Shown: piece after piece, positions 1 through 19,063 of the stretch
Numbering within the stretch: the stretch's first letter is position 1
Layout: the number at the start of each line of letters is the position of its first letter
Source of the DNA: Microcystis aeruginosa NIES-2549
GTDB taxonomy: Bacteria; Cyanobacteriota; Cyanobacteriia; Cyanobacteriales; Microcystaceae
Length of the DNA: 32,000 bases
NCBI RefSeq assembly: GCF_000981785.2
Contig: NZ_CP011304.1
Coordinates: 180,001 to 212,000, forward strand
Direction of reading: 5' to 3'
Made by a program: the position numbers and the translations under genes
The notes under the pieces: model-generated
Database searches by the model: none
The model's input: the letters and a program-made list of their open reading frames with translations, nothing else
What the model was told of the DNA's origin: nothing

Positions 1-649
1 GACTTTCGAGAACGCGATCGATTAATCCGTAGTCTTTCGCCTGTTGTGGGGTGAGATAGAAGGTGCGATCCATATCTTTCGCCAGTTTTTCGGTGGTTTG
101 ACCCGTATTTTTCGAGAAAATTTCCAACATCGTCTGTTTGTTGGCGATTACCTCCTTGGCACGAATCTGGATATCGGTGGCTTGTCCCTGGGCCCCGGTG
201 CGATTTTGGTTGAGAACAATGGTAGCGTGGGGTAAGGAGGCGCGAAAACCCTTGGTTCCTGCGGAAAGAATCATCGCGGCAGTTCCCATGGCCTGTCCGA
301 TACAGATAGTATGAACGGGAGGTTTAATGTAGTTGAGGGTGTCACAGATGGCGAAAGCTTCGGTTTCGTAGCCGATCGCGTCGCCAGTGTACCAGGATGT
401 GCCGGTAGAGTTGATATAGAAGAAAATCGGTTTTTCGGGATCGTCAAATTGCAGGTAGAGCAGTTGGGCGATAATTAATTCCGTCACGTCCACCCCGACA
501 TTGCGCTTGACATCATCGGAGGAAAATAAAGGCAACCCCAGATAGACAATTCTCTCTTTGAGCAGGAGAGATTCTAAGTCTGGTGGTGGTGTCCGATAGG
601 CTGCATCCCCATAATAGGCAGTTTGTACCGCTTTAATCACTGAGTTCAT
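1..649 (-). CDS. clpR: ClpR, catalytically inactive ClpP-like Clp protease subunit (3' end runs off the window)
   Basis: Hand translation of the minus strand from the ATG at 649 gives MNSVIKAVQTAYYGDAAYRTPPPDLESLLLKERIVYLGLPLFSSDD...FYINSTGTSWYTGDAIGYETEAFAICDTLNYIKPPVHTICIGQAMGTAAMILSAG...ATIVLNQN. The fold is ClpP-like, but the active-site Ser motif reads GQAMGTAAM and the His position reads LNQN, which is the ClpR pattern. It is absent from the ORF track because no stop lies in the window. Confidence 0.85.
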   Translation of the reverse strand, partial: MNSVIKAVQTAYYGDAAYRTPPPDLESLLLKERIVYLGLPLFSSDDVKRNVGVDVTELIIAQLLYLQFDDPEKPIFFYINSTGTSWYTGDAIGYETEAFAICDTLNYIKPPVHTICIGQAMGTAAMILSAGTKGFRASLPHATIVLNQNRTGAQGQATDIQIRAKEVIANKQTMLEIFSKNTGQTTEKLAKDMDRTFYLTPQQAKDYGLIDRVLES

Positions 650-788
650 CGAGTTTTTCCGTCATACACAGTATCCTGCTTTTGATTTTAACGTAATCAG
701 GTTGACCGATCGGCAAAAGTGTAGCGGTGGTTTGCCTTCTCCCTGCTTTAACAACTTCTGCTGTTCACCAGTAGTAACAAGCAGATTT

Positions 789-1775
789 CTAGTCGATAAT
801 TAGGGCAATTTTCCCCGTCACCGAACCAGTTTCTAGCAATTGATGGGCGCTGATAGCTGCCGCTAAAGGGAAGGTTTGGGAGAGATGAATGGTTAACTTT
901 TTCTCGTCAATTAAACGCGCCCCTTGTCTGAGAATTTCTGTTTGATATTTTTGCGCTTCTGGCAGTCCCATCAAAGCCGGGGTTAACATTAATTCTAAAC
1001 TAATCCGCAAATTGCGATCGCGGGCTTCCTTCCAGCTGCCCGTAGGTTCCAAAATCGTCACCATATCGCCGTACACTCGCACCGCTCGGCAAGTTTGCCT
1101 AAAAGTTTCCCCTCCCACCGTATCAAAAGCGATATCTACTCCTTTCCCTGCGGTTTCTTGAAGTATCGCCGCGACAAAATCGGTTTGTTTGTATAAAATC
1201 GGGTAATCTGCCCCTAATTGCCGCACTAAACGCTCTTTATCGCTATTTCCCACCGTTGTATAAACTTTAGCCCCTTTCAGTTTCGCCAATTGAATCGCAA
1301 CATGACCAACACCCCCGGCCCCGCCATGGATAAGTACGCTTTGTCCCGACTGAAGACGGGCGCGATCGTAGAGTGCTTCCCAAGCGGTGATTAAAACCAA
1401 AGGTACAGCGGCCGCCTCAGCAAAAGAAAGAGATTTCGGCTTGTGAGCCAGATAATCCGCCTCGATTAGGGCATATTCAGCATAATTTCCCGTGCCAGCC
1501 CTGCCCAGTCCGCCGCTACAAAAGTACACTTCATCCCCGGGGCGAAAATCCTGCACCGCCGACCCAACGGCCTCGACAATTCCCGCCCCGTCACAGCCCA
1601 AAATGGCTGGCATTTGCTCGGGGTAAAAAGTGCCGCGTTTACGAATTTTTGTATCAATAGGGTTGACACCAGCCGCTTTTAATGCTACTAAAACCTGATG
1701 CGGTTGACTAATTTTCGGGGTGGGGACTTGCTGAAGTTGCAGCACATCCACGGCGGTCATGAGGATAGCTTTCAT
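789..1775 (-). CDS. NADPH:quinone oxidoreductase / zinc-type alcohol dehydrogenase family (MDR superfamily)
   Basis: 328-aa ORF with a GCDGAGIVEAVG substrate-domain motif and a HGGAGGVGHVAIQLAK Rossmann motif, typical of Qor-like MDR enzymes. Confidence 0.8.
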   Translation of the reverse strand: MKAILMTAVDVLQLQQVPTPKISQPHQVLVALKAAGVNPIDTKIRKRGTFYPEQMPAILGCDGAGIVEAVGSAVQDFRPGDEVYFCSGGLGRAGTGNYAEYALIEADYLAHKPKSLSFAEAAAVPLVLITAWEALYDRARLQSGQSVLIHGGAGGVGHVAIQLAKLKGAKVYTTVGNSDKERLVRQLGADYPILYKQTDFVAAILQETAGKGVDIAFDTVGGETFRQTCRAVRVYGDMVTILEPTGSWKEARDRNLRISLELMLTPALMGLPEAQKYQTEILRQGARLIDEKKLTIHLSQTFPLAAAISAHQLLETGSVTGKIALIID

Positions 1776-1780
1776 TCTAT

Positions 1781-2296
1781 CTATTCGGGATTAACCCACA
1801 TTAACGTCTGGCCAAATTCTACCGGTTCACCGTTAGCGACGGCGATTTCGACGATTTGCCCGGCCACTTCCGCTTCGATTTCGTTCATCAACTTCATCGC
1901 TTCGATGATACAGACCGTTTGTCCGACCCGGACTCGATCGTTTTTTTCCACGAAAGAGGGTTCATCGGGAGCGGGAGCGCGATAAAAAGTGCCGACCATG
2001 GGAGAGGTAATCGCCAGCCATTTTTTATCAATAGCGGCGGCCGCGGGTTCGGGAGTGGGGGTTTCTGGGGCCGGGGTGGGACTGGCGGCTACCACTGGAG
2101 GGGCGACCGGGGCCGTCACCACCGGCAAGGGAGCGGGGAGAGGCCCAAGGGCAGTATTAACGGTTTCTTTGCGGATATTTAGCTCCAAATCTGCACTTTT
2201 TAGGCTAAATTCACTGATATCCGTTGCTGCCAATGTTTTGATCAGTTCTCGAATTTCGTTGTAATCAATAGTCACCGCTCTGAAATCCCCTCGCAA
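1781..2296 (-). CDS. accB: Acetyl-CoA carboxylase biotin carboxyl carrier protein
   Basis: Has the biotinyl-lysine motif CIIEAMKLMNEIEAE, a Pro/Ala-rich linker and an N-terminal DYNEIRELIKTL. The track ORF begins at a TTG. A GTG at 2275 (giving MTIDYNEIREL) is an equally plausible true start. Confidence 0.9.
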   Translation of the reverse strand: MRGDFRAVTIDYNEIRELIKTLAATDISEFSLKSADLELNIRKETVNTALGPLPAPLPVVTAPVAPPVVAASPTPAPETPTPEPAAAAIDKKWLAITSPMVGTFYRAPAPDEPSFVEKNDRVRVGQTVCIIEAMKLMNEIEAEVAGQIVEIAVANGEPVEFGQTLMWVNPE

Positions 2297-2441
2297 ATAA
2301 AAAGCAACAAATCCAAATTCGCACCCACCAAACCGCCGATTTTTCCCATCTAGCGGCTAAGTTTTGGGAAACAGGCTCAGAAACACTGGCTTTAGTCCTA
2401 AACCCGTCCCTAAGCCCTCATTTCTGGGCTTCTCATCACAA

Positions 2442-2999
2442 TTATTCCCGTCCCAGATAGGAACCATCCCTGGTATCCACTTTAATCCTTTCACCGATGG
2501 AAATAAACAGGGGAACCATCACCTGCGCTCCCGTTTCTACGATCGCCGGTTTCGTGCCACCGGTGGCCGTATCTCCCTTGACTCCCGGATCCGTATCGGT
2601 GATTTCCAAGATTACCGAGGTGGGCAATTCCACATCTAACACTTGCTCATTCCAAAAGAGAATATTAACTTCCATTCCCTCTTTCAGATACTTGGCTTGA
2701 TCGCCCATCTGTGCCGGGGTGAGAGTTGCTTCCTCAAAAGTCTCCATGTCCATAAAGACAAACTGATCGCCTTCTTTGTAGGTGTGCTGCATGGTGCGCT
2801 TTTCGATCGTGGCTGAGGGCAAGGTTTCCCCCGCCCGGAACGTCCGTTCTACCACGTTGCCGGTCTGGACATTTTTTAACTTGGTTCGCACGAAGGCCGA
2901 TCCCTTACCCGGTTTGACGTGCAGGAATTCCACCACCCGCCAGACAGAGCCATCGATCTGGATGGTTGTGCCACTCCGAAAGTCGTTACTCGAAATCAT
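2442..2999 (-). CDS. efp: Translation elongation factor P
   Basis: 185 aa, starting [43 protein letters not shown]. This is a full-length EF-P signature, and the efp-accB pairing is common in cyanobacteria. Confidence 0.95.
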
Positions 3000-3175
3000 G
3001 AAATGCTGTTTAGGCCAAGAAAGATCAACATTCCATTTTACATACTCGCCGTACCGAAAAAAACTTTTTTATGGGAATTTGTCTGAATTGAAGCGCGGTG
3101 GACTAACCTAGGGGCAGCAGCTAAAAGTAAGTTAGAATTAATTGACTGACTGACATCTGAGAAGCGATATCAACC

Positions 3176-3493
3176 ATGACGGGTGTGGACTTACAGCAAT
3201 TATTACTAGAAAAATGGGGTCGTTCCTACGATATCCAGCTACGACGCATCAAAGATAAGGTTCATGTCCAGGTAATGTGGAAATATCTCGAACAAGCTTC
3301 TTTTCCCCTCTCCGAGTCTGAATATCTGGAACATCTCAATGCGATCGCTAATTATCTCCACGAATGGGGTGGTGTTAGTCAATTTCAAGCTTTTATCCGC
3401 GAAACCCGCGAGCGTCCCCGTCTCGGTAAAGCGGTTAGTCTGCCCCTAGACCTAGGTGAAAGGGCATCGGAATGGCTGCTCAGTGATCAGTGA
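3176..3493 (+). CDS. Conserved cyanobacterial/plastid-lineage protein, DUF3067-like
   Basis: 105 aa. From memory, LLEKWGRSYDIQLRR...VMWKYLEQASFPLSE...RPRLGKAVSLPL matches the DUF3067 consensus. Confidence 0.6.
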   Translation: MTGVDLQQLLLEKWGRSYDIQLRRIKDKVHVQVMWKYLEQASFPLSESEYLEHLNAIANYLHEWGGVSQFQAFIRETRERPRLGKAVSLPLDLGERASEWLLSDQ

Positions 3494-3549
3494 TCAGTTA
3501 TTACAATTACATCATCGAAATTTGTGGGTATTATTCAAATATACTAGCA

Positions 3550-3798
3550 TTACTGGGATGATTGGATTTTACTAACATTGAGAATACTTAAACCAATGAT
3601 CTTATCCGCTTGATAACGAATAATCACATCATTATCTGTTAATTCGCTATCATCCGCAGGTAAAGATGGTTGATAAAAATTAATATACAAAATATCTGCT
3701 TTTGCATCATAAGCTGTCCAAAAATCTTGCTGAGGCAGAGCGTGAATCATCTTGGCGAAGTTAAGATAAGATTGAATATTAATGCTAGTTATGGCCAT
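3550..3798 (-). CDS. DUF2283-family small protein (putative antitoxin-like partner)
   Basis: 82 aa. YDAKADILYINF...DNDVIIRYQADKIIGLSILNVSK fits the DUF2283 pattern (YD.eaD.lyi ... G.ei). It overlaps the upstream 100-aa ORF by 10 nt. Confidence 0.6.
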   Translation of the reverse strand: MAITSINIQSYLNFAKMIHALPQQDFWTAYDAKADILYINFYQPSLPADDSELTDNDVIIRYQADKIIGLSILNVSKIQSSQ

Positions 3799-4091
3799 AT
3801 TTGTTTCCTCTTGGTTAATTCACAAAGAAGACGGGTTAAATAAGCAGTAATAATAAATCCCTCATCTAATAATTCTCGATAAACAACGATTAGATATTTT
3901 CCAGAAACTATTTGTTTAACTGCCAACAATTCCTGCTGGTTTCCTACTAGGATTTTCTCAGGATAGCGGATGGTTTCCAATATCTCCGCTTGATACGATA
4001 CTAATTCACTATGTCCACTGATAATGTGTTTCCATCTCTCCTCTGTCAGACGAATTAAAACCCCATTCTGAGAAGTTGTATGGAGATTCAT
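3789..4091 (-). CDS. Small conserved hypothetical protein, putative toxin-like partner of the DUF2283 gene (DUF4258/BECR-like; family uncertain)
   Basis: 100 aa containing LTEERWKHIISGHSEL...KYLIVVYRELLDEGFIITAYLT. It is AT-rich and translationally overlapped with the downstream DUF2283 ORF. Confidence 0.5.
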   Translation of the reverse strand: MNLHTTSQNGVLIRLTEERWKHIISGHSELVSYQAEILETIRYPEKILVGNQQELLAVKQIVSGKYLIVVYRELLDEGFIITAYLTRLLCELTKRKQIWP

Positions 4092-4146
4092 AGGTTCCGA
4101 TTTAGTGCAAATAGACCTTTAAACCACACTTTCAACCTGATGAACC

Positions 4147-6048
4147 TTATTCCACCGTGACACTTTTGGCTAAATTGCGCGGCTGATCCACGTCTAAACC
4201 GCGACGAGCCGCGATATGATAGGAGAGCAATTGTAGGGGAATTACCGTTAAAATTGGCGATAATAATTCCTCAACTTCTGGCACATACAACAAATCATTA
4301 AAGACTTTTGGTGCTTCCGTATCGCTATCGGCAACTACTCCCAATAATCGCGCATCCCTTGCTTTTGCTTCCTGTGCATTGGAGAGAACTTTATCATAAA
4401 CTACCCCCGGCATCGCAATCGCTACTACGGGAACTTTTGCATCTAAAAGCGCGATTGGTCCGTGTTTCATTTCTCCGGCTGGATAGCCTTCGGCATGAAT
4501 ATAACTGATTTCTTTGAGTTTTAAGGCCCCTTCTAAGGCAATGGGGAAATTAATCCCCCGTCCCAAGAAAATAAAGTCTTGGGTGTCATTAAATTCATGG
4601 GCCAATTCTTCGATCGCTTTTTCCTGTTTTTCTAAGACAGTTTCGATCAACCTTGGCAGCGATCGCATTTGATTAATAATTTGCTCGATTCTCTCTAAAG
4701 ACAAAGTTTGACGACGATAGGATAAATCCAAAGCTAAGAGATAAAAACCCAATAACTGGGCGGTAAAACTCTTAGTTGCGGCCACCCCGATTTCGATCCC
4801 CGCTTGGGTATTAATAATCTGATCGACCATTTGTGCTAGGGTACTTTCGGGGCGATTAGTAATCCCGATAATCCGGGCCTGATATTTTTTTCCTAATCCT
4901 AAACGACGCTGTTTTTCTGTTTCCAACGCCGCTAAAGTGTCGGCTGTTTCCCCCGATTGCGTCACCCCGATGGTTAAAGTATTGGGCATCAGGGGGGTGG
5001 GTGCATAGCGAAATTCCGAGGCGTACTGTACTCTTGTGGGAATACCTGCCAACTGCTCAATCAAGTATTTACCGACTAAACTGGCGTGCCAACTGGTTCC
5101 ACAGGCTAAAATCTGAATATGTTCTAAATTATCGTAAATTTCTTCAGAAAAATTAATATTTATCGGGTTGACATTATCCCCATTTTGTGCTGTCCAATGG
5201 GGATGCAGATAGGTCCCTAAACAGTCGCGCACCACTCCTGGTTGTTCGTAGATTTCCTTGAGCATGAAGTGACGATAACCCTGTTTTTCTACGGTGGTCG
5301 GACTCCAATCGAGGACTCTGGGGCTTTTACGGACTCTTTTTCCCTCAAAATTATAAATTTCTACTCCCAAGGGTGTTAAGCGAGCGATTTCGCCATTATC
5401 CAAGGACAGCACCGCCCGGGTATGGGGAACCAAAGCACTGACATCGGAGGCACAGAAAAACTCCCCCTGACCAAAACCGATGATTAAAGGGGCGTGTTGC
5501 CGCACGACAATCAATTCATCGGGATAATCGGGACTAATTACCGCTAGGGCAAAAGCACCCTCTAAACGTTCAATTGCCTTTAAAACTGCCTTGAGGAAAG
5601 GACTCACCCCCAAGTCTTCTTCATCGCTAGGTTTGGGTAAATAACTGGCGATTAGATGGGGAATAACTTCTGTGTCGGTTTCTGAGTCAAATATACAGCC
5701 TTTTTCCTTTAATTCTGTTCTTAATGCCTGAAAGTTTTCGATAATGCCATTCTGTACCACTGCCACCCGTTGACTGTTATCGGTGTGGGGATGGGCATTA
5801 CTTTCTACGGGTTTGCCGTGGGTTGCCCAACGGGTGTGACCGATGCCAATTTGGGAGGGATTAACTTCCTGTTCTAATTTTTCCCGCAGATTGTAGAGTT
5901 TTCCCTGGGCGCGGACTCGATGTAATTCACCTTCGAGAATTGTGGCAATCCCTGCCGAATCATAACCCCGATATTCCAAACGTTCCAAACCAGCTAGGAG
6001 AATATCGATCGCTGTTTGGGTTCCGATATAGCCAACAATTCCGCACAT
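4147..6048 (-). CDS. glmS: Glutamine--fructose-6-phosphate aminotransferase (isomerizing)
   Basis: MCGIVGYIG N-terminal nucleophile motif, two SIS domains and a C-terminal LAKSVTVE. The track ORF starts 4 codons upstream (MSERM), but GlmS needs Cys as residue 2, so the start is set at 6048. Confidence 0.95.
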   Translation of the reverse strand: MCGIVGYIGTQTAIDILLAGLERLEYRGYDSAGIATILEGELHRVRAQGKLYNLREKLEQEVNPSQIGIGHTRWATHGKPVESNAHPHTDNSQRVAVVQNGIIENFQALRTELKEKGCIFDSETDTEVIPHLIASYLPKPSDEEDLGVSPFLKAVLKAIERLEGAFALAVISPDYPDELIVVRQHAPLIIGFGQGEFFCASDVSALVPHTRAVLSLDNGEIARLTPLGVEIYNFEGKRVRKSPRVLDWSPTTVEKQGYRHFMLKEIYEQPGVVRDCLGTYLHPHWTAQNGDNVNPININFSEEIYDNLEHIQILACGTSWHASLVGKYLIEQLAGIPTRVQYASEFRYAPTPLMPNTLTIGVTQSGETADTLAALETEKQRRLGLGKKYQARIIGITNRPESTLAQMVDQIINTQAGIEIGVAATKSFTAQLLGFYLLALDLSYRRQTLSLERIEQIINQMRSLPRLIETVLEKQEKAIEELAHEFNDTQDFIFLGRGINFPIALEGALKLKEISYIHAEGYPAGEMKHGPIALLDAKVPVVAIAMPGVVYDKVLSNAQEAKARDARLLGVVADSDTEAPKVFNDLLYVPEVEELLSPILTVIPLQLLSYHIAARRGLDVDQPRNLAKSVTVE

Positions 6049-6204
6049 TCTTTCGCTCACCCCATTTAGGCTAAGTCCGATCTATTCTATCGCAAGCGTG
6101 GCGCTTGTTTGCTTAGAGCCTAAAGACGCAGGGGTAAGGGTAAAGTTTCCCCTATAGGAGAGTGGGGTGTGGGGAGAATAAATAAAAGCAATATAGATCA
6201 CTCA

Positions 6205-6567
6205 GCAGCACACTTTGTTCTTTTTGTCAAAAAAACTTTCTCTTTGCAACAAAACTACACAATTAATTGATCAACGGGTTGGCTTAAAAAAGGCTCTTTA
6301 ACTGCCATTTATTGCTGTTGCTGAATAGGTGAGTGTAGATTTAGCAAGGGTTTTCAGGATCACCAGACAGCTAAAAACCCTAAAAAGCACAGAAAAACCC
6401 ATCATTTCATACCGCGAAATTATACCATAATCGCTGGAAGTATTGCAACCTCGTAAACAAATGAGAATTATTTTCAATAAATTCTTAAGAAAAGGTAAAT
6501 ATTGCGAAATGTAAATTCAAATATTCTCAACTATTAACGCTTGTTTGATATAAAAAACTTATAAAAG
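6205..6567 (+). repeat. Direct repeat copy 1 (~363 bp, AT-rich), left flank of the nuclease-methyltransferase cassette
   Basis: Collinear with 9035-9399. By eye there are roughly 14 substitutions plus one or two 1-nt indels, about 95% identity. Confidence 0.95.
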
Positions 6568-6612
6568 ATAATTAAGTAGGTGGGTGGAATTAAATATAAG
6601 ATGAACGTAGAA

Positions 6613-6678
6613 CGTAGGTTGGGTTGAAGCATGAAACCCAACCCCCGCACGGGTTACGCTACCGCTAACCCATCCTAC
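6613..6678. repeat. Nested palindromic element (GTAGGTTGGGTT...AACCCATCCTAC type)
   Basis: The outer arms are GTAGGTTGGGTT and AACCCATCCTAC (11 of 12 complementary). Inner hairpin 1 is GTTGGGTT-gaagcatga-AACCCAAC and inner hairpin 2 is GGGTTA-cgctaccgc-TAACCC. A related arm sequence occurs at 17792-17856. Confidence 0.7.
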
Positions 6679-6800
6679 AAATAATTGTGCCTACCTACCC
6701 AACTTCACGGCAGGTTAATGGTAAGTATTCAAAGTTAATCGGTCTGATTTTCCCCTGAGTAAGGAAGATTTATCGAAACTATCACAAACAGTGCTAACCC

Positions 6801-9026
6801 ATGAATCATATTTTTTCTGCTATTGATTTTCAGGCAATTAAAAATCACCCTAACTTTAAGGAAGACAGCGTTAGAGAAGTGATTATTTTACCTCTTTTAA
6901 CAAGTTTGGGCTACCAAGAGGATAATATCGAAAGAAGTAAAACCCTACGGCATCCCTTTTTAAAGGTTGGCAGTAAAAAACGTCCGATAAATTTAATTCC
7001 TGACTATGTTCTCAAAGTTAATCAAAGTTATGCTTGGGTATTAGAGGCTAAAAAACCAACGGAAAATATCTACGAAGGTGATTCAGTAGAACAGGTCTAT
7101 AGTTATGCCACTCATCCTGAAATCAGAAGTAATTATTTTGCTCTTTGTAATGGCCTAGAATTTAGTTTATTTAAGACCCTCGATACCAGTACACCTATCT
7201 TATATTTTTCTCTTGATGCAATTGCCGATAGTTGGCAAGAGTTGACCCAGTATTTAGCCCCAGATAGATTTCAAGTGGGGAAAAGTTTTAGTTATCAAAG
7301 CCATTCCCCAATCAGTCGCAAAACTTTTGACTACTCAAGTCGTCCCTTATTAGAACCAATTGAGGTAAAAAAACAACAAGCTAAAAGACATTTTGGTGTT
7401 CATGGATATTTTACTAAACAAGCATGGAATGTGGTGGCAGAATATATTAAAAACTTTAGTCAACCGGGAGATGTCATTCTTGATCCTTTTGGCGGTAGTG
7501 GAGTGACGGCAATTGAAGCTTTAATGAATAACCGCAAAGCGATTAGTATTGATATTAACCCTCTGGCTATTTTTCTTGTTAATTCTTTAATTAGTCCCGT
7601 TGATTTTGATGATTTAAGTCAGGCTTTTGAACGAGTTAAATTAGCCTACCAAGAGCGAGAACCGCAAACCAAAGAGGAAATAACAAAGATTCTCAATACC
7701 TATCCTTATCCCCAAGGTTTGAAACTGCCTAAAGGTTCTGATGTGGCTACTGTTGAACAGTTATTTAGTAACAAACAATTAGCTCAACTAAGTTTATTAA
7801 AACATTTGATTAAACAAGAACTAAACGAGAATGTTAGAGAGTCTTTATTGTTAGTTTTTTCCAGTACAATCAATAAGTATAATTTGACTTTTCATTACAC
7901 AAGAAGTGCGGCGGGGGGTGATAGTTCTGTATTTAGATATTATCGCTATAGAATTGCTCATGAACCTGGAGAAATGCCCTTAATAAAAATTTATGAAACT
8001 AAATTTAAAAAACTTGTTGCAGCTAAACAAGAAATGGAGTTTTATGTTAATAAAAACACCATCAACTATGCCAAAATTGTTAAAGGAACAGCGACAGACT
8101 TAAATTTTATTGAAAATGAAAGCGTTGATTATATTTATACCGATCCTCCCTACGGAAAGAAAATTCCCTACTTAGATTTATCAATAATGTGGAATGCTTG
8201 GTTAGATTTAGAAGTGACGGAAAAGGACTATCAATTAGAAGCTATTGAAGGTGGAACAATCCAAAAAAGTAAACAGGAATATAATCAATTAATTGCCCAA
8301 AGTATTCGAGAAATGTATCGGGTTTTAAAATTTGAGCGATGGTTATCCTTTGTCTTTGCTCACAAAGATCCTGAGTTTTGGCATTTAATTTTAGATACGG
8401 CAGAAAGTTGCGGATTTGAGTATGTGGGAGCAGTGCCACAAAAAAATGGACAAACGAGCTTTAAAAAGCGGCAAAATCCCTTTACAGTTTTATCAGGACA
8501 GTTAATTATTAATTTTCGGAAAGTTCCCACTCCCAAAGCGGTAATGAAAGCTAACTTAGGCATGGATATCACCGAGATTGTCATGCAAACTGTTGAAGGA
8601 ATTATTGCTAAAAATGATGGGGCAACCCTAGAACAAATTAACGATGAATTGATTATTAAAGGTTTGGAATTAGGGTTTTTAGATTTACTAGCCAAGGAGT
8701 ATTCAGACTTGACTCCAATTTTGTTAGATAATTTTGATTATGAGGAAAAGACTGAATTATATACCATCAAAAAAGATAGTAAGTTTAAGTCAAAAATCGA
8801 TGTTAAATTGAGAATTAAATACTATTTGATTAGCTATTTGAGAAGGATGGAAAGAGATAATAAAAGCTCTAGTTTTGATGATATTGTTTTTAATATATTA
8901 CCTCTGTTAAAAAATGGCACAACTCCCGAAAATCAGACGATTCTAAGCGTCCTCGAAGATATTGCCCAGAGAGTTGGTGATGATAACTGGCGCTTAAAAC
9001 AAGAAGGACAATTGAGTTTATTTTAA
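6801..9026 (+). CDS. Fusion protein: N-terminal HsdR_N-like PD-(D/E)xK nuclease domain + DPPY-type DNA (probably N6-adenine) methyltransferase + ~200-aa C-terminal region of unknown function
   Basis: 741 aa. The N-terminus reads KEDSVREVIILPLLTSLGY...LIPDYVLKVNQSYAWVLEAKKP...YFALCNGLEFSLF, giving a D-x13-ExK spacing and an HSDR_N-like layout. SAM motif I is ILDPFGGSGVTAIEA (~aa 226). Catalytic motif IV is DYIYTDPPYGKKIPYLDLSIMWNAWL (~aa 443). GC is roughly 33%, well below the neighbouring genes. Confidence 0.75.
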   Translation: MNHIFSAIDFQAIKNHPNFKEDSVREVIILPLLTSLGYQEDNIERSKTLRHPFLKVGSKKRPINLIPDYVLKVNQSYAWVLEAKKPTENIYEGDSVEQVYSYATHPEIRSNYFALCNGLEFSLFKTLDTSTPILYFSLDAIADSWQELTQYLAPDRFQVGKSFSYQSHSPISRKTFDYSSRPLLEPIEVKKQQAKRHFGVHGYFTKQAWNVVAEYIKNFSQPGDVILDPFGGSGVTAIEALMNNRKAISIDINPLAIFLVNSLISPVDFDDLSQAFERVKLAYQEREPQTKEEITKILNTYPYPQGLKLPKGSDVATVEQLFSNKQLAQLSLLKHLIKQELNENVRESLLLVFSSTINKYNLTFHYTRSAAGGDSSVFRYYRYRIAHEPGEMPLIKIYETKFKKLVAAKQEMEFYVNKNTINYAKIVKGTATDLNFIENESVDYIYTDPPYGKKIPYLDLSIMWNAWLDLEVTEKDYQLEAIEGGTIQKSKQEYNQLIAQSIREMYRVLKFERWLSFVFAHKDPEFWHLILDTAESCGFEYVGAVPQKNGQTSFKKRQNPFTVLSGQLIINFRKVPTPKAVMKANLGMDITEIVMQTVEGIIAKNDGATLEQINDELIIKGLELGFLDLLAKEYSDLTPILLDNFDYEEKTELYTIKKDSKFKSKIDVKLRIKYYLISYLRRMERDNKSSSFDDIVFNILPLLKNGTTPENQTILSVLEDIAQRVGDDNWRLKQEGQLSLF

Positions 9027-9034
9027 ATCCAGTG

Positions 9035-9399
9035 GCAGCACACTTTTTTCTTTTTGTCAAAAAAACTTTCTCTTTGCAACAAAACTACACAATTAATTGA
9101 TCAACGGGTTGGCTTAAAAAAGGCTCTTTAACTGCCAGTTGTTGCTGTTGCTGAATAGGTGAGTGTAGATTTAGCAAGGGTTTTCAGGATCACCAGACAG
9201 CTAAAAAGCCAAAAAAGCACAGAACATACCATCACTTCATACTGCGAAATTATACCATAATCGCTGGAAGTATTGCAACCTCGTAAACAAATGAGAATTA
9301 TTTTCAATAAATTCTTAAGACAAAGATAAATATTGCGAAATGTAAATTTAAATATGCTCAACTATTAACGCTTGTTTGATATAAAAAACTTATAAAAAG
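9035..9399 (+). repeat. Direct repeat copy 2, right flank of the cassette
   Basis: Begins 8 nt after the stop of the 741-aa ORF and is collinear with 6205-6567. Confidence 0.95.
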
Positions 9400-9441
9400 T
9401 GGTAATTTTTACTGACTGATAACTGATTACTGAGACAAACT

Positions 9442-10008
9442 TTACACAGGAATGACAACTGCTGTTAAAGCGGCAGTAACCGCGTCCATCGGTTGATTAC
9501 CGTCGATATGGTTAAGAGTCCCCTTTTGACCGTAATAATCTAAAACGGGGGCAGTTTGGTCGATATAAACCTGTAGGCGACGGGCGATGGTTTCTTTAGT
9601 ATCATCTTGACGACCCCGTTGCATGAGACGCTCAATTAAGACCGTATCTGGTACAGCCAAATTAACCACAAATGTGTAACTATCGGCCAATTCTTCCAGT
9701 AATGCGTCTAAAAAGCTCGCCTGTGCCACCGTGCGGGGAAACCCATCAAGAATCCAACCCTTAGCACTGTCAGGCTGTTTTAAACGTTCCTGAATTAAAC
9801 CTAATAACAACTCATCGGGGACTAATTCGCCCTTTTCCACATAAGCTTGTGCTTGTTGACCAAGTTCTGTCTTCTCTGTAATTGCTTGACGTAAAATTTC
9901 ACCGGTAGAAATATGGGGAATCGTCAGAGATTCCGCTAATTTTGCCGCTTGGGTACCTTTTCCCGATCCGGGCGGTCCCAAAAATATCACACCGATCCGT
10001 TTGCTCAT
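9442..10008 (-). CDS. adk: Adenylate kinase
   Basis: 188 aa with P-loop GPPGSGKGTQA. It lacks the zinc-lid cysteines (short lid) and sits directly after secY. Confidence 0.95.
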   Translation of the reverse strand: MSKRIGVIFLGPPGSGKGTQAAKLAESLTIPHISTGEILRQAITEKTELGQQAQAYVEKGELVPDELLLGLIQERLKQPDSAKGWILDGFPRTVAQASFLDALLEELADSYTFVVNLAVPDTVLIERLMQRGRQDDTKETIARRLQVYIDQTAPVLDYYGQKGTLNHIDGNQPMDAVTAALTAVVIPV

Positions 10009-17917: not shown

Positions 17918-18199
17918 CTATTTCCGTCCTGCTTTTTTATCGCTCTTGGCGTGGCCGCGGAAGGTGCGGGTGGGAGCGAATTCACCGAGTTTATGACCGA
18001 CCATCTGCTCGGAAACGTAGACGGGAACGTGCTGTTTGCCGTTGTGAACGGCGATCGTGTGACCGACCATATCGGGAATGATTGTCGAGGCCCGGGACCA
18101 AGTTTTAATCACTTGTTTACTGCCCTGGGCGTTGAGTTTTTCGATTTTTTCCATCAGGTGGCCAGCGACAAATGGCCCCTTTTTCAGTGAACGACCCAT
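17918..18199 (-). CDS. rpsS: 30S ribosomal protein S19
   Basis: [11 protein letters not shown]...[17 protein letters not shown]...[13 protein letters not shown]. Confidence 0.95.
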
Positions 18200-18229
18200 A
18201 ATTTTCAGTCAAAAGTAAAGTAATAATTT

Positions 18230-19063
18230 CTAACCCTGGTTACGACGGCGCACGATCAGATCGCTACTGCGTTTTTTCTTGTTGCGAGTTTTGCGACCGA
18301 GGGCGGGTTTACCCCAGGGAGTCATCGGGCCGGAACGTCCGATGGGAGCGCGACCCTCTCCACCTCCATGCGGGTGATCCACTGGGTTCATGACGCTACC
18401 CCGAACATGAGGCCGTTGACCGCGGTGACGGGTACGGCCGGCTTTACCGAGACTGATGTTTCTCGCTTCGGCGTTACCGACTTTTCCGATGGTGGCGTAG
18501 CATTCACGCCGGATCATGCGGACTTCTTTGGAGGGGAGGCGGATGGTAACATAATCGCCTTCTTTGGCTACCACTTGGGCGAAACCACCAGCGGCCCGCA
18601 CCATTTGACCACCGCGACCGGGGACGAGTTCGATGTTATGAACTTCTGTCCCTAGGGGGATGCGACTTAAAGGGAGGGCATTACCCACCTCGAAAGGAGC
18701 GTTTTCTCCGGCGATGACGGTATCACCAACGCCTAAACCGGCGGGGGCGATGATGTAGCGTTTTTCCCCGTCTTTGTAGAAAAGCAGGGCAATGCGGGCG
18801 TTACGGTTAGGATCGTACTCGATCGCCGCTACTGTGGCGGGAATATCCCGTTTATCGCGACGAAAATCGATCATCCGGTAGAGGCGCTTATGGCCGCCGC
18901 CCCGGTGACGACTGGTGACGACACCGCGATTATTACGCCCCTGTTGACTGTGTTTGTGGTAAGTTAGGGACTTTTCCGGTTCGGTTTTGGTGATCTCTTT
19001 AAAGTCGGAGATGGCCGCCTGCCTTGTCCCGGGGGTTAAAGGTCTAAAAGAACGAATACCCAT
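18230..19063 (-). CDS. rplB: 50S ribosomal protein L2
   Basis: 277 aa with [19 protein letters not shown]...[13 protein letters not shown]. Confidence 0.95.

What the first reader, a model, noticed from the sequence alone, without database searches (positions are those of the whole stretch)
6205..9399. Single-gene low-GC cassette bracketed by ~363-bp direct repeats, between glmS and adk
Directly visible: 6205-6567 and 9035-9399 are collinear direct repeats. They differ by roughly 14 substitutions and one or two 1-nt indels, about 95% identity. Between them lie only a palindromic element (6613-6678) and one 741-aa ORF, whose stop is 8 nt from repeat 2. The window contains no integrase or transposase, and the repeat unit has no terminal inverted repeats. 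A 363-bp repeat is far too long for a transposition target-site duplication.

Inference: the pattern fits Campbell-type single-crossover integration of a circular molecule carrying a homologue of the adk-glmS spacer, or duplication-mediated gene capture. Direct repeats of this length predict RecA-dependent precise loss of the gene. That would make presence or absence of the nuclease-methyltransferase switchable within a population. The ~5% divergence suggests the two copies came from different donors, or that the event is old.
Basis: partly seen in the sequence, partly recalled or inferred. Interest (0 to 1): 0.75.

Follow-up and report, generated by a model that had tools for sequence, protein, structure and literature searches.

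The report
Restriction-modification gene flanked by duplicated spacer
A foreign DNA-methylase/nuclease gene sits in the adk-glmS spacer of a Microcystis chromosome with the 363-bp core of that spacer duplicated on both sides; related strains carry the empty one-copy site, so this is a clear new example of a known way restriction-modification genes enter genomes.

Summary
Window 6205-6567 and 9035-9398 are direct repeats (349/363 identical, one 1-nt indel). They bracket one low-GC 741-aa ORF and a MITE-like palindrome.

The repeat (REP) is the native adk-glmS spacer core of Microcystis. It occurs once or twice per genome, only in this genus, and not on the phages or plasmids searched.

- Eleven related loci show the predicted empty site (adk-REP-glmS, one copy).
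- Seven loci, including the window, show REP-gene-REP.

REP carries a near-consensus promoter facing glmS and a 65-nt nearly invariant block.

In M. wesenbergii the duplication extends about 45 nt and 22-75 nt beyond the core. The 363-bp edges are therefore erosion endpoints, not att sites.

The same spacer is also duplicated, without the gene, in a second genome architecture.

[quoted passage not shown] Campbell integration and RecA-mediated switching stay unproven. I found no circle, amplification junction or clean recombinant allele. One locus lost the gene by an illegitimate deletion instead.

Verdict: real, well supported, and a new member of a known kind. Interest is moderate to low.

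The parts
4147..6048 (-). glmS (633 aa; the start codon gives MCGIVGY)
   Evidence: Pfam SIS and GATase_6/7 domains. Called as a 633-aa gene in related assemblies. Start codon read from the sequence.
6049..6204 (-). Unique glmS-proximal 5' flank ('g5'). It contains a CCCCACA-type microsatellite.
   Evidence: Collinear with empty sites but only 83-93% conserved, with indels. The microsatellite is expanded in L006.
6205..6567 (-). REP1, the glmS-side copy of the 363-bp spacer core
   Evidence: It is 100% identical to the L002 copy and 99% identical to the single copy of empty locus L033.
6419..6448 (-). Promoter-like site in REP1 (TTGCAA, 18-nt spacer, TATAAT preceded by TG), pointing towards glmS
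   Evidence: Joint top score (10 of 12, shared with two plus-strand sites) and the only site type with a TG before the second hexamer in the scan of 5900-9600. Almost invariant across 33 distinct REP sequences. Function not tested.
6218..6282 (-). Nearly invariant 65-nt block within REP1 (CCAACCCGTTGATCAATTAATTGTGTAGTTTTGTTGCAAAGAGAAAGTTTTTTTGACAAAAAGAA)
   Evidence: Nearly invariant in 33 distinct copies, while the rest of REP varies. RNAalifold found no covariation (covariation term -0.41).
6568..6695 (.). Filler holding a MITE-like palindromic element (about 6576-6698). In this lineage it replaces a roughly 370-nt MITE filler plus 45 nt of adk-3'-like flank.
   Evidence: Fold z = -4.15. Copies sit at other positions in L012, L013, L020, L024, L026, L028 and L034. 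It also hits Microcystis phages and cyanobacterial plasmids.
6696..6800 (+). 5' region of the cassette, shared by every locus in which the 5' end of the gene is held
   Evidence: Homology with L009, L013, L014 and L020 ends at window 6696.
6801..9026 (+). Cargo ORF of 741 aa. N-terminal PD-(D/E)xK (HSDR_N) domain fused to an N6/N4 DNA methyltransferase (motif I FGGSG, motif IV DPPY) and a conserved C-terminal region.
   Evidence: Pfam PF04313 and PF01555, both above the curated cut-offs. PADLOC PglXI and MTase_II. Invariant P67-D68...[E/D]82-A-K84, FGGSG and DPPY in 12 homologues from several phyla. GC 33.9%.
9027..9034 (.). 8-nt junction (ATCCAGTG) between the stop codon and REP2. Nearly all M. 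aeruginosa gene-bearing loci share it (L020 and L027 have 1-2 changes). M. wesenbergii has about 165 nt here instead.
   Evidence: A 9-nt remnant of this junction marks the deletion scar in L028.
9035..9398 (-). REP2, the adk-side copy of the spacer core
   Evidence: It is 99.4-100% identical among the occupied loci L002, L004 and L005.
9249..9278 (-). The same promoter-like site in REP2, here pointing antisense into the 3' end of the cargo ORF
   Evidence: Antisense transcription is an inference only.
9399..9441 (-). adk 3' flank holding heptamer (ACTGATA / TCAGTAA-type) repeats of variable copy number
9442..10008 (-). adk (188 aa), the last gene of the secY-adk ribosomal-protein operon
   Evidence: Pfam ADK.

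Best explanation
The locus is an insertion of a restriction-modification-type gene with a long target duplication.

The event (inferred). In an ancestor within Microcystis, a compositionally foreign, self-contained single-gene cassette entered the adk-glmS intergenic spacer. The cassette encodes a PD-(D/E)xK nuclease-like domain fused to an N6/N4 DNA methyltransferase. Nearly the whole spacer ended up on both sides of the gene, at least about 430-500 bp originally.

Why a 363-bp core survives (inferred). The core (REP) stays recognisable because it is functionally constrained. It carries a near-consensus promoter with an extended -10 that faces glmS, plus a 65-nt nearly invariant block. The outer parts of the duplication drifted. 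In the window's lineage they were also trimmed, by a deletion next to the stop codon and by MITE turnover at the gene's 5' side. After the event adk keeps its native 3' flank and glmS keeps its native upstream region, which would explain why the arrangement is tolerated.

What is shown:
- the repeats;
- their identity with a single-copy, genus-specific spacer;
- the empty and occupied alleles;
- the longer duplication in M. wesenbergii;
- a shared junction that points to a single origin.

The step that made the duplication (inferred). I think a one-step break-repair insertion is the most likely, at roughly 0.4. The foreign fragment would be joined between two breakpoints about 0.5 kb apart on sister or homologous chromosome copies. 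This needs only the two illegitimate joints that any model requires.

Later history (inferred). The allele then spread and was reshuffled by the frequent homologous recombination of Microcystis. It can be lost by REP x REP recombination (predicted, not shown) or by illegitimate deletion (shown once).
For: 1. Repeats confirmed.
2. REP is unique, not dispersed. The 27-mer scan found 12 stretches, all in Microcystis, one or two per genome, and one in each of two complete chromosomes. There were none in viral contigs, and no REP or cassette hit in the phage or plasmid collections.
3. Eleven empty sites have one REP that is collinear with both outer flanks: L001, L003, L006, L007, L017, L021, L022, L023, L029, L031 and L033. 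Seven loci are occupied with two REPs: the window, L002, L004, L005, L025, L014+L015 and L036. No locus of this architecture has two REPs without the gene, or the gene with only one REP.
4. Single origin. In all 14 gene-bearing loci the gene's 3' end faces adk-REP. Most M. aeruginosa loci share the identical junction GCTGC|CACTGG.
5. In M. wesenbergii both copies share at least 45 nt more on the adk side and 22-75 nt more on the glmS side, and the gene has its own 165-nt 3' flank. L002, L004, L005 and L025 keep the 45-nt adk-like flank next to REP1. The 363-bp edges are therefore secondary.
6. The cargo is foreign: GC 33.9% against 45.5%. Homologues at 68-77% identity occur in Nostocales, Bacteroidota and Nitrospirae as solitary genes.
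7. Promoter-like site and nearly invariant block in REP.
8. The class is documented. Furuta, Abe and Kobayashi 2010 (PMC2853133) list RM insertions with target duplications of 30 to 423 bp, including one in Microcystis NIES-843, with no mobility genes.
Against: - The spacer is also duplicated without the gene in a second architecture: adk-REP-clpR, and separately ADH-REP-glmS. That architecture carries the same flank alleles, so the duplication may predate the gene or be independent of it.
- The step that generated the duplication leaves no diagnostic trace. The junction on the gene's 5' side is overwritten by MITEs.
- Promoter activity, nuclease activity and methylation specificity are untested.
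- No direct evidence for REP x REP loss. None of the 9 distinct empty alleles tested is a clean REP2-to-REP1 chimera. The REP2-specific 27-mer had no hit in the JGI metagenomes.
Confidence: 0.6

Rival explanations
1. Campbell-type origin and cycling. A circular molecule carrying the gene plus one copy of the spacer integrated by a single homologous crossover into the resident spacer, which produced REP-gene-REP. The reverse reaction excises it. REP would then act as a species-wide homology landing pad, and presence or absence would switch within populations.
For: - The repeats are direct, 363 bp or longer, with no terminal inverted repeats, no short target-site duplication and no recombinase.
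- REP is conserved in every Microcystis locus examined, so any strain offers a target.
- In M. aeruginosa occupied loci, REP1's outer flank is the M. wesenbergii-type adk 3' allele, while REP2's flank is the local allele.
- REP2 is nearly invariant among the occupied loci L002, L004 and L005, while REP1 varies and matches an empty-site allele, L033.
Against: - It needs more events than the one-step model: a prior simple insertion, a circularisation, then the crossover. The predicted one-REP intermediate was not seen among 14 gene-bearing loci.
- No REP or cassette on phages, plasmids or viral contigs.
- None of about 40 REP copies has the circle or tandem junction, meaning the gene's 5' filler on its left and the gene's 3' end on its right.
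- In M. wesenbergii both copies carry the same flank allele type, as expected for an intragenomic duplication.
- The divergence between the copies equals ordinary allelic diversity.
- The occupied loci are close relatives across the whole locus, which fits vertical descent.
Confidence: 0.2
2. Pre-existing repeats, a by-product of a larger rearrangement. The spacer was duplicated by an older rearrangement that separated adk from glmS (architecture B). The gene merely sits next to the adk-side copy. Later MITE- or microsatellite-mediated rearrangement brought the two copies back to within 2.5 kb of each other.
For: - Architecture B has two REP copies far apart, with the gene (T1-4) or without it (L016, L019, L032, L034, L037).
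- The glmS-side copy has the same adk-3'-like flank in architecture B and in all occupied loci except the window itself, where the MITE-like element replaces it. The adk-side copy has the same 22-nt glmS-flank allele in architecture B and in M. wesenbergii.
- The two architecture-B copies are the most diverged pair, at 89%.
- Related MITE copies and (CCCCACA)n arrays sit at the novel junctions.
- The gene's 5' side is a recurrent breakpoint at window 6696, with five different neighbours.
Against: - In architecture A, REP duplication and gene presence co-occur perfectly: 7 loci have both and 11 have neither.
- Architecture B cannot be turned into architecture A by one inversion or deletion, because the 5.4-kb glmS..ADH block is circularly permuted. 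The route back to REP-gene-REP would therefore need several precise steps.
- The ADH-clpR spacer of architecture A carries no REP or MITE remnant.
Confidence: 0.2

Closest known systems
RM gene insertion with long target duplication (Nobusato et al. 2000, Gene 259:99; Furuta, Abe and Kobayashi 2010, NAR 38:2428, PMC2853133)
   Same: - The cargo is restriction-modification-type and has a lower GC than the host.
- The flanking direct repeats equal a sequence that is single-copy in related genomes without the insert.
- The repeats are unique in the genome.
- There is no integrase or transposase.
- The repeat length falls in the reported range. Table 3 of the paper lists 417/423, 384/412 and 388/397 bp cases.
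   Different: - The cargo is one fused nuclease-methyltransferase ORF, not a separate R and M gene pair.
- Almost the whole intergenic spacer, including a promoter-like site facing an essential gene, is duplicated.
- The event is old. The two copies are as diverged as alleles, and the inner edges are eroded by deletion and MITEs.
- The same duplicated spacer also exists split across a large rearrangement without the gene.
Microcystis aeruginosa NIES-843 Type II RM flanked by an 88-bp target duplication (Furuta 2010, Table 3)
   Same: Same genus, same class of event, and detected in the same way, by comparison with a strain that lacks the insert.
   Different: The repeat there is much shorter (88/88 bp, identical copies). 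I did not check whether it is the same locus or cargo. Here the repeat is 363 bp at 96% identity, and several allelic states are sampled across the population.
Campbell-type single-crossover integration, and amplifiable RM units flanked by long direct repeats (BamHI in Bacillus subtilis; Sadykov et al. 2003, cited in PMC2853133)
   Same: The architecture repeat-cargo-repeat is the one that homologous recombination can create, delete or amplify.
   Different: No circular form, tandem amplification or recombinant deletion allele was found here.
Site-specific genomic islands and IS/transposon insertions
   Same: A strain-variable defence gene bracketed by direct repeats at a conserved chromosomal position.
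   Different: - No integrase, transposase, tRNA target, terminal inverted repeats or short target duplication.
- The repeat boundaries differ between lineages.

Membership tests
[quoted passage not shown] 2010) | The inserted segment contains restriction and modification gene homologues | tested here: met
   A single ORF carries HSDR_N (PD-(D/E)xK; 28.3 bits against a cut-off of 25.1) and N6_N4_Mtase (63.7 bits against 26.7). The catalytic motifs are invariant in homologues. The test is met at the homology level only. Activities are untested, and the two functions are fused rather than encoded by two genes.
[quoted passage not shown] 2010) | The insert is shorter than 20 kb, and the flanking direct repeat is longer than 30 bp | tested here: met
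   2,467 bp lie between the repeats. The repeats are 363 and 364 bp.
[quoted passage not shown] 2010) | Both repeats align to one single-copy sequence in a related genome that lacks the insert | tested here: met
   Eleven empty loci have one REP that is collinear with both outer flanks.
[quoted passage not shown] 2010) | No mobility gene nearby, and the repeat is not a multicopy element | tested here: met
   No integrase or transposase among the window ORFs scanned. The REP 27-mer occurs once or twice per genome. Caveat: non-autonomous MITEs abut the gene's 5' side.
Campbell-type integrated circular element | A free or circular form exists that carries the cargo plus one copy of the homology region | tested here: inconclusive
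   None was found in 2.9 million viral contigs, 50,697 phage records or 72,556 plasmid records. No circle junction was seen among about 40 REP copies. Absence from assemblies does not exclude rare circles.
Campbell-type integrated circular element | The two repeat copies are reciprocal chimeras of the resident and donor alleles | tested here: inconclusive
   The breakpoint scan of 9 distinct empty alleles against 5 occupied pairs gave no clean pattern. L033 is close to REP1, and L029 is close to the M. wesenbergii REP2. Rampant allele mosaicism obscures any signal.
Integrase-mediated genomic island | An integrase gene and a short, identical att core at fixed positions, often in a tRNA gene | tested here: not met
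   No integrase and no tRNA in the window. The repeats are 363 bp and 4% diverged, and their edges differ between lineages.
Transposon / IS / MITE (for the cassette or for REP itself) | Terminal inverted repeats, a short target-site duplication, and multiple dispersed copies | tested here: not met
   There are no terminal inverted repeats on REP or the cassette. REP is found next to adk or glmS in every copy whose flank is readable.
Type IIG-like single-chain restriction-modification enzyme (the cargo) | Nuclease and methyltransferase domains in one polypeptide, with an intact PD-(D/E)xK motif, SAM motif I and catalytic motif IV | tested here: met
   P67-D68...[E/D]82-A-K84, FGGSG (230-234) and DPPY (448-451) are invariant in the 12-sequence alignment.
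Type IIG-like single-chain restriction-modification enzyme (the cargo) | Demonstrated sequence-specific cleavage and methylation | not testable with these tools
   No solved relative exists beyond the methyltransferase motif-I region of M.RsrI, CcrM and MboIIA. The AlphaFold model was poor (pLDDT 49.8), so no fold search was run.

The most novel reading that the evidence does not exclude
REP-gene-REP may be an active, self-renewing module. REP x REP recombination would release a circle holding the gene plus one REP. Every Microcystis strain carries REP, so the circle could re-enter any empty strain by a Campbell crossover. This would be the invasion-amplification-release 'life cycle' that Kobayashi proposed for RM genes, here using a conserved promoter-bearing spacer as a homology-based att site. 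In addition, the REP2 copy of the glmS-type promoter would fire antisense into the gene and tune expression of the nuclease-methylase.
Probability: 0.12. Interest if true: 0.65.

Novelty: new member of a known kind. Interest (0 to 1): 0.35.

Why it matters
Microcystis carries unusually many restriction-modification systems (PMC8262939, abstract seen), and how they are gained and lost is poorly documented.

This locus is a well-sampled natural series. The public assemblies contain several states:
- empty and occupied sites in each of two genome architectures;
- a third genomic context for the gene (L009, L020);
- a deletion scar;
- an older, longer form of the duplication in M. wesenbergii.

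The series shows three things. A long target duplication can persist and erode. The conserved core of the duplication coincides with a promoter-bearing, highly constrained spacer. And the gene's 5' side has become a breakpoint for MITE-associated rearrangement.

The locus also gives a concrete place to measure repeat-mediated loss, amplification or circle formation of a defence gene, and to test whether such insertions survive only when they duplicate cis-elements needed by both neighbours. It does not reveal a new kind of mobile element.

Tried and rejected
- Rfam at gathering and E-value thresholds, and a tRNA scan: nothing relevant. REP is not a known RNA, and the site is not a tRNA att site.
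- Folding of the glmS leader: no better than shuffles, z = -0.64. RNAalifold on 33 distinct REP halves: no covariation. A structured RNA in REP is not supported.
- Metagenome scan with a REP2-specific 27-mer, meant to catch deletion alleles: zero hits, so uninformative.
- Single-breakpoint chimera test of empty alleles against occupied pairs: no clean recombinant.
- Search for REP or the cassette on phages, plasmids and viral contigs: only the MITE-like element matched.
- Flanking direct repeats around homologues in Sphingobacteriales and Dolichospermum: none bracket the gene. The repeats are therefore not a property of the cargo family.
- PDB sequence and profile searches: only methyltransferase motif-I matches.
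- AlphaFold model from a 12-sequence alignment: pLDDT 49.8, so no fold search was attempted.
- Deriving architecture B from A by a single inversion, deletion or REP x REP event: none fits, because the glmS..ADH block is circularly permuted.
- Dispersed-repeat, integrase-island and transposon readings were all rejected (see the membership tests).


Full report
**1. The observation.** Window 6205-6567 (REP1) and 9035-9398 (REP2) are collinear direct repeats, 96.1% identical over 363 columns with one 1-nt indel. Between them lie a 128-nt filler holding a hairpin-rich element (DNA fold z = -4.15) and a single ORF at 6801-9026. The ORF's stop codon is 8 nt from REP2. The neighbours are glmS (4147-6048, minus strand) and adk (9442-10008, minus strand), the last gene of the secY-adk ribosomal-protein operon. 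No integrase or transposase domain was found among the ORFs scanned; the other large ORFs correspond to the ribosomal-protein operon of related loci. The ORF has GC 33.9% (GC3 27%) against 45.5% for the window.

**2. Source and what REP is.** The adk protein is identical in many Microcystis assemblies.

An exact 27-mer from REP, scanned against one genome for each of 185,579 species, hit only Microcystis. It gave 12 stretches in 9 genomes, one or two per genome, and one in each of two complete chromosomes. It had no hit in viral contigs. Neither REP nor the cassette matched any phage or plasmid record. REP is therefore a unique, genus-specific intergenic sequence and not a dispersed repeat.

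On the minus strand REP carries a site of the form TTGCAA, 18-nt spacer, TATAAT with a preceding TG. It has the joint top score (10 of 12) in the scanned region and is the only site type there with the TG. It lies at 6448 to 6419 in REP1 and at 9278 to 9249 in REP2. In REP1 it faces glmS. In REP2 it faces the 3' end of the inserted ORF.

Across 33 distinct REP sequences the promoter-like boxes are almost invariant. A 65-nt block (6218-6282 and its REP2 counterpart) is nearly invariant, while the rest of REP varies. There is no Rfam match and no covariation support for an RNA structure. REP is conserved at 93-97% between strains, like the flanking genes. The adjacent unique spacer parts are only 83-93% conserved, with indels. 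This argues that REP is under constraint. Promoter function is an inference.

**3. Empty and occupied sites.** The exact adk protein, the genome scan and a metagenome scan together retrieved 37 related loci.

- Eleven have adk-REP-glmS with one REP, collinear with the window's adk-side flank plus REP2 and with REP1 plus the glmS-side flank: L001, L003, L006, L007, L017, L021, L022, L023, L029, L031 and L033.
- Seven, counting the window, have REP-gene-REP: L002, L004, L005, L025, L036 and M. wesenbergii L014+L015.
- In this architecture, two REPs and the gene always go together.

**4. Single origin and eroded edges.** In all 14 gene-bearing loci the gene's 3' end faces adk-REP. The M. aeruginosa loci share essentially the same junction, GCTGC|CACTGG.

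In M. wesenbergii the gene keeps a 165-nt 3' flank of its own. There the adk-side copy continues 22-75 nt into glmS-flank-like sequence, and both copies share at least 45 nt of adk 3' flank. T1-4 keeps about 72 nt of that flank next to its glmS-side copy.

The other M. aeruginosa occupied loci keep the 45-nt adk-like flank, plus a roughly 370-nt MITE filler, next to REP1. In the window that stretch is replaced by the 128-nt palindromic element.

The original duplication was therefore at least 430-500 bp, which is most of the spacer. The 363-bp boundaries seen in the window are secondary. This argues against any site-specific (att-like) mechanism.

**5. Divergence of the copies.** Within-genome copy identity is 94.5-95.9% in M. 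aeruginosa, 92.3% in M. wesenbergii and 89% in T1-4. Empty-site alleles from different strains have a median identity of 95.0% (range 93.1-100). The alleles are visibly mosaic. The 4% difference is what two alleles drawn from this recombining population would show. It does not by itself indicate different donors. It fits an old event followed by independent recombination of each copy with the population.

**6. Evidence on Campbell integration and repeat-mediated loss.**

- No extrachromosomal carrier was found.
- No REP copy has the gene's 5' filler on one side and the gene's 3' end on the other, which would mark a circle or tandem junction.
- No one-REP gene-bearing intermediate was found.
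- A breakpoint scan found no clean REP2-to-REP1 chimera among the empty alleles.
- The scan for a REP2-specific marker in metagenomes was empty.
- The occupied M. aeruginosa loci are close relatives across the whole locus and share a glmS-flank allele that the empty sites lack. This fits descent from one event.

The one demonstrable loss is L028. There the gene and its filler are gone, but 9 nt of the stop-codon/REP junction remain, followed by a 58-nt hairpin. That is an illegitimate deletion. Precise REP x REP loss remains a reasonable prediction, not a finding.

**7. A second architecture.** T1-4, S464, LSC13-02 and several metagenome contigs have two separate loci:

- adk-REP followed by about 22-50 nt of glmS-flank-like sequence, then clpR-clpP. 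This locus occurs with the gene (T1-4) or without it.
- Elsewhere, efp-accB-ADH-(CCCCACA)n/MITE-(adk 3' flank)-REP-glmS.

Compared with the window, the 5.4-kb glmS..ADH block is moved and circularly permuted, and the spacer is duplicated even when the gene is absent. The flank alleles of the two copies match those of the occupied loci. One old spacer duplication therefore seems to underlie both states. I could not determine whether the gene's insertion or a rearrangement created that duplication, and this is the main uncertainty.

The gene's 5' boundary (window 6696) is a recurrent breakpoint with five different neighbours, and MITE ends abut it.

**8. The cargo.** The 741-aa protein has an HSDR_N-type PD-(D/E)xK domain and an N6/N4 methyltransferase with the motif order I...IV. 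It matches PADLOC PglXI and MTase_II models. P-D...[E/D]-x-K, FGGSG and DPPY are invariant in homologues.

Homologues at 68-77% identity occur in Nostocales, Bacteroidota, Nitrospirae and Ignavibacteria. Where I checked, they are solitary genes among housekeeping genes, with no flanking long repeats. The protein is a predicted single-chain restriction-modification enzyme; its activity is untested. No informative solved relative exists, and the structure model was too poor to use.

**9. Comparison with what is known.** Furuta, Abe and Kobayashi 2010 (PMC2853133), following Nobusato et al. [quoted passage not shown] The defining features are an RM cargo, an insert shorter than 20 kb, a duplication longer than 30 bp that aligns to a single-copy target in a related genome, no mobility genes, and low repeat copy number. 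Reported repeats reach 417/423 bp, and one case is in Microcystis NIES-843 (88 bp). The mechanism is unknown; the authors suggest double-strand breakage and note that such units can amplify.

Every criterion I could test is met here (see the membership table). The finding is a new member of a known kind. Its useful extras are population-level sampling of several states, evidence that the duplicated core is a constrained, promoter-bearing module, and erosion of the duplication edges.

**10. Verdict.**
- Observation: confirmed.
- Interpretation: partly supported.
- Most likely explanation: an old, single insertion with long target duplication. I favour a one-step break-repair origin over a Campbell origin, because it needs only the two illegitimate joints that every model requires.
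- Rivals: a Campbell circle (0.2) and pre-existing repeats from a larger rearrangement (0.2).
- Interest: 0.35.

Noticed in passing
window 6576-6698; also L012:288-406, L013:7259-7339, L020:5194-5278, L024:12080-12161, L026:2122-2203, L028:3235-3316, L034:10750-10831: The 'palindromic element' is a MITE-like unit with paired termini and two internal hairpins. In other strains it sits in the opposite orientation between adk and REP. Similar copies occur in Microcystis phages (Ma-LMM01 18147-18267, the MaMV-DC group) and on plasmids of Kovacikia, Nostoc and Cylindrospermopsis.
   Followed up: partly
L012, L013, L016, L018, L019, L028, L030, L032, L034, L035, L037 (compare window 1-6204): There is a second genome architecture. 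adk-REP is joined to clpR-clpP, and a circularly permuted block efp-accB-ADH-REP-glmS lies elsewhere. In MAG S464 the two REP copies are inverted relative to each other on one contig. REP is duplicated here even without the methylase gene. No single inversion or deletion explains it.
   Followed up: partly
L028:3806-3873: The methylase gene is deleted, leaving a 9-nt remnant of the stop-codon/REP junction (CACTGGATT). A 58-nt perfect-terminus hairpin (AACTTAGTGTCA...TGACACTAAGTT) follows, directly upstream of a slightly truncated clpR leader.
   Followed up: partly
window ORF 6801-9026, aa ~353-425; L009:2217-4451; M. wesenbergii (L014+L015, P0002): One segment between methyltransferase motifs I and IV comes in two sharply different forms. 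Both forms occur in Microcystis and also across other phyla. This looks like swapping of a target-recognition module, and so probably two specificities.
   Followed up: partly
window 9399-9441 and 6049-6204; L006:10006-10651: The adk 3' flank holds heptamer repeats (ACTGATA / TCAGTAA type). The glmS 5' flank holds a CCCCACA-type microsatellite. Both vary in copy number between strains and are strongly expanded in L006. CCCCACA arrays also sit at the rearrangement junctions of the second architecture.
   Followed up: no
window 6218-6282 and 9048-9112: A 65-nt block of REP is nearly invariant in 33 distinct copies. It contains the overlapping palindromes TTGATCAA and CAATTAATTG and an imperfect palindrome GTTTTTTTGACAAAAAGAAC. 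It may be a protein-binding site; its function is unknown.
   Followed up: no
L003:8729-9910, L007:43-1230: In some strains an IS605-family OrfB/TnpB gene is inserted between secY and adk, inside the ribosomal-protein operon.
   Followed up: no
L001:13102-20567, L002:16179-20396, L003:13125-20567, L007:4445-11887 (compare window 3550-4091): The region downstream of glmS is another variable defence spot. Some strains carry a Type I hsdM/hsdS/hsdR system with nucleotidyltransferase/HEPN pairs, and most of those also have a ParE-type toxin pair. The window has only a DUF2283 pair.
   Followed up: no
L002:10752-10974, L005:10752-10974 (the REP2 copies): In these two occupied loci the -10 box of the REP2 copy reads TACAAT instead of TATAAT. 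This is the copy that faces the methylase gene. The glmS-side copies keep TATAAT.
   Followed up: no
L025:2307-2430: An extra insertion of about 105 nt (with CCCCCCTTATCAAGGGGGG hairpins) lies in the 5' region of the methylase gene in this metagenome contig. It is another small mobile element at the same hotspot.
   Followed up: no
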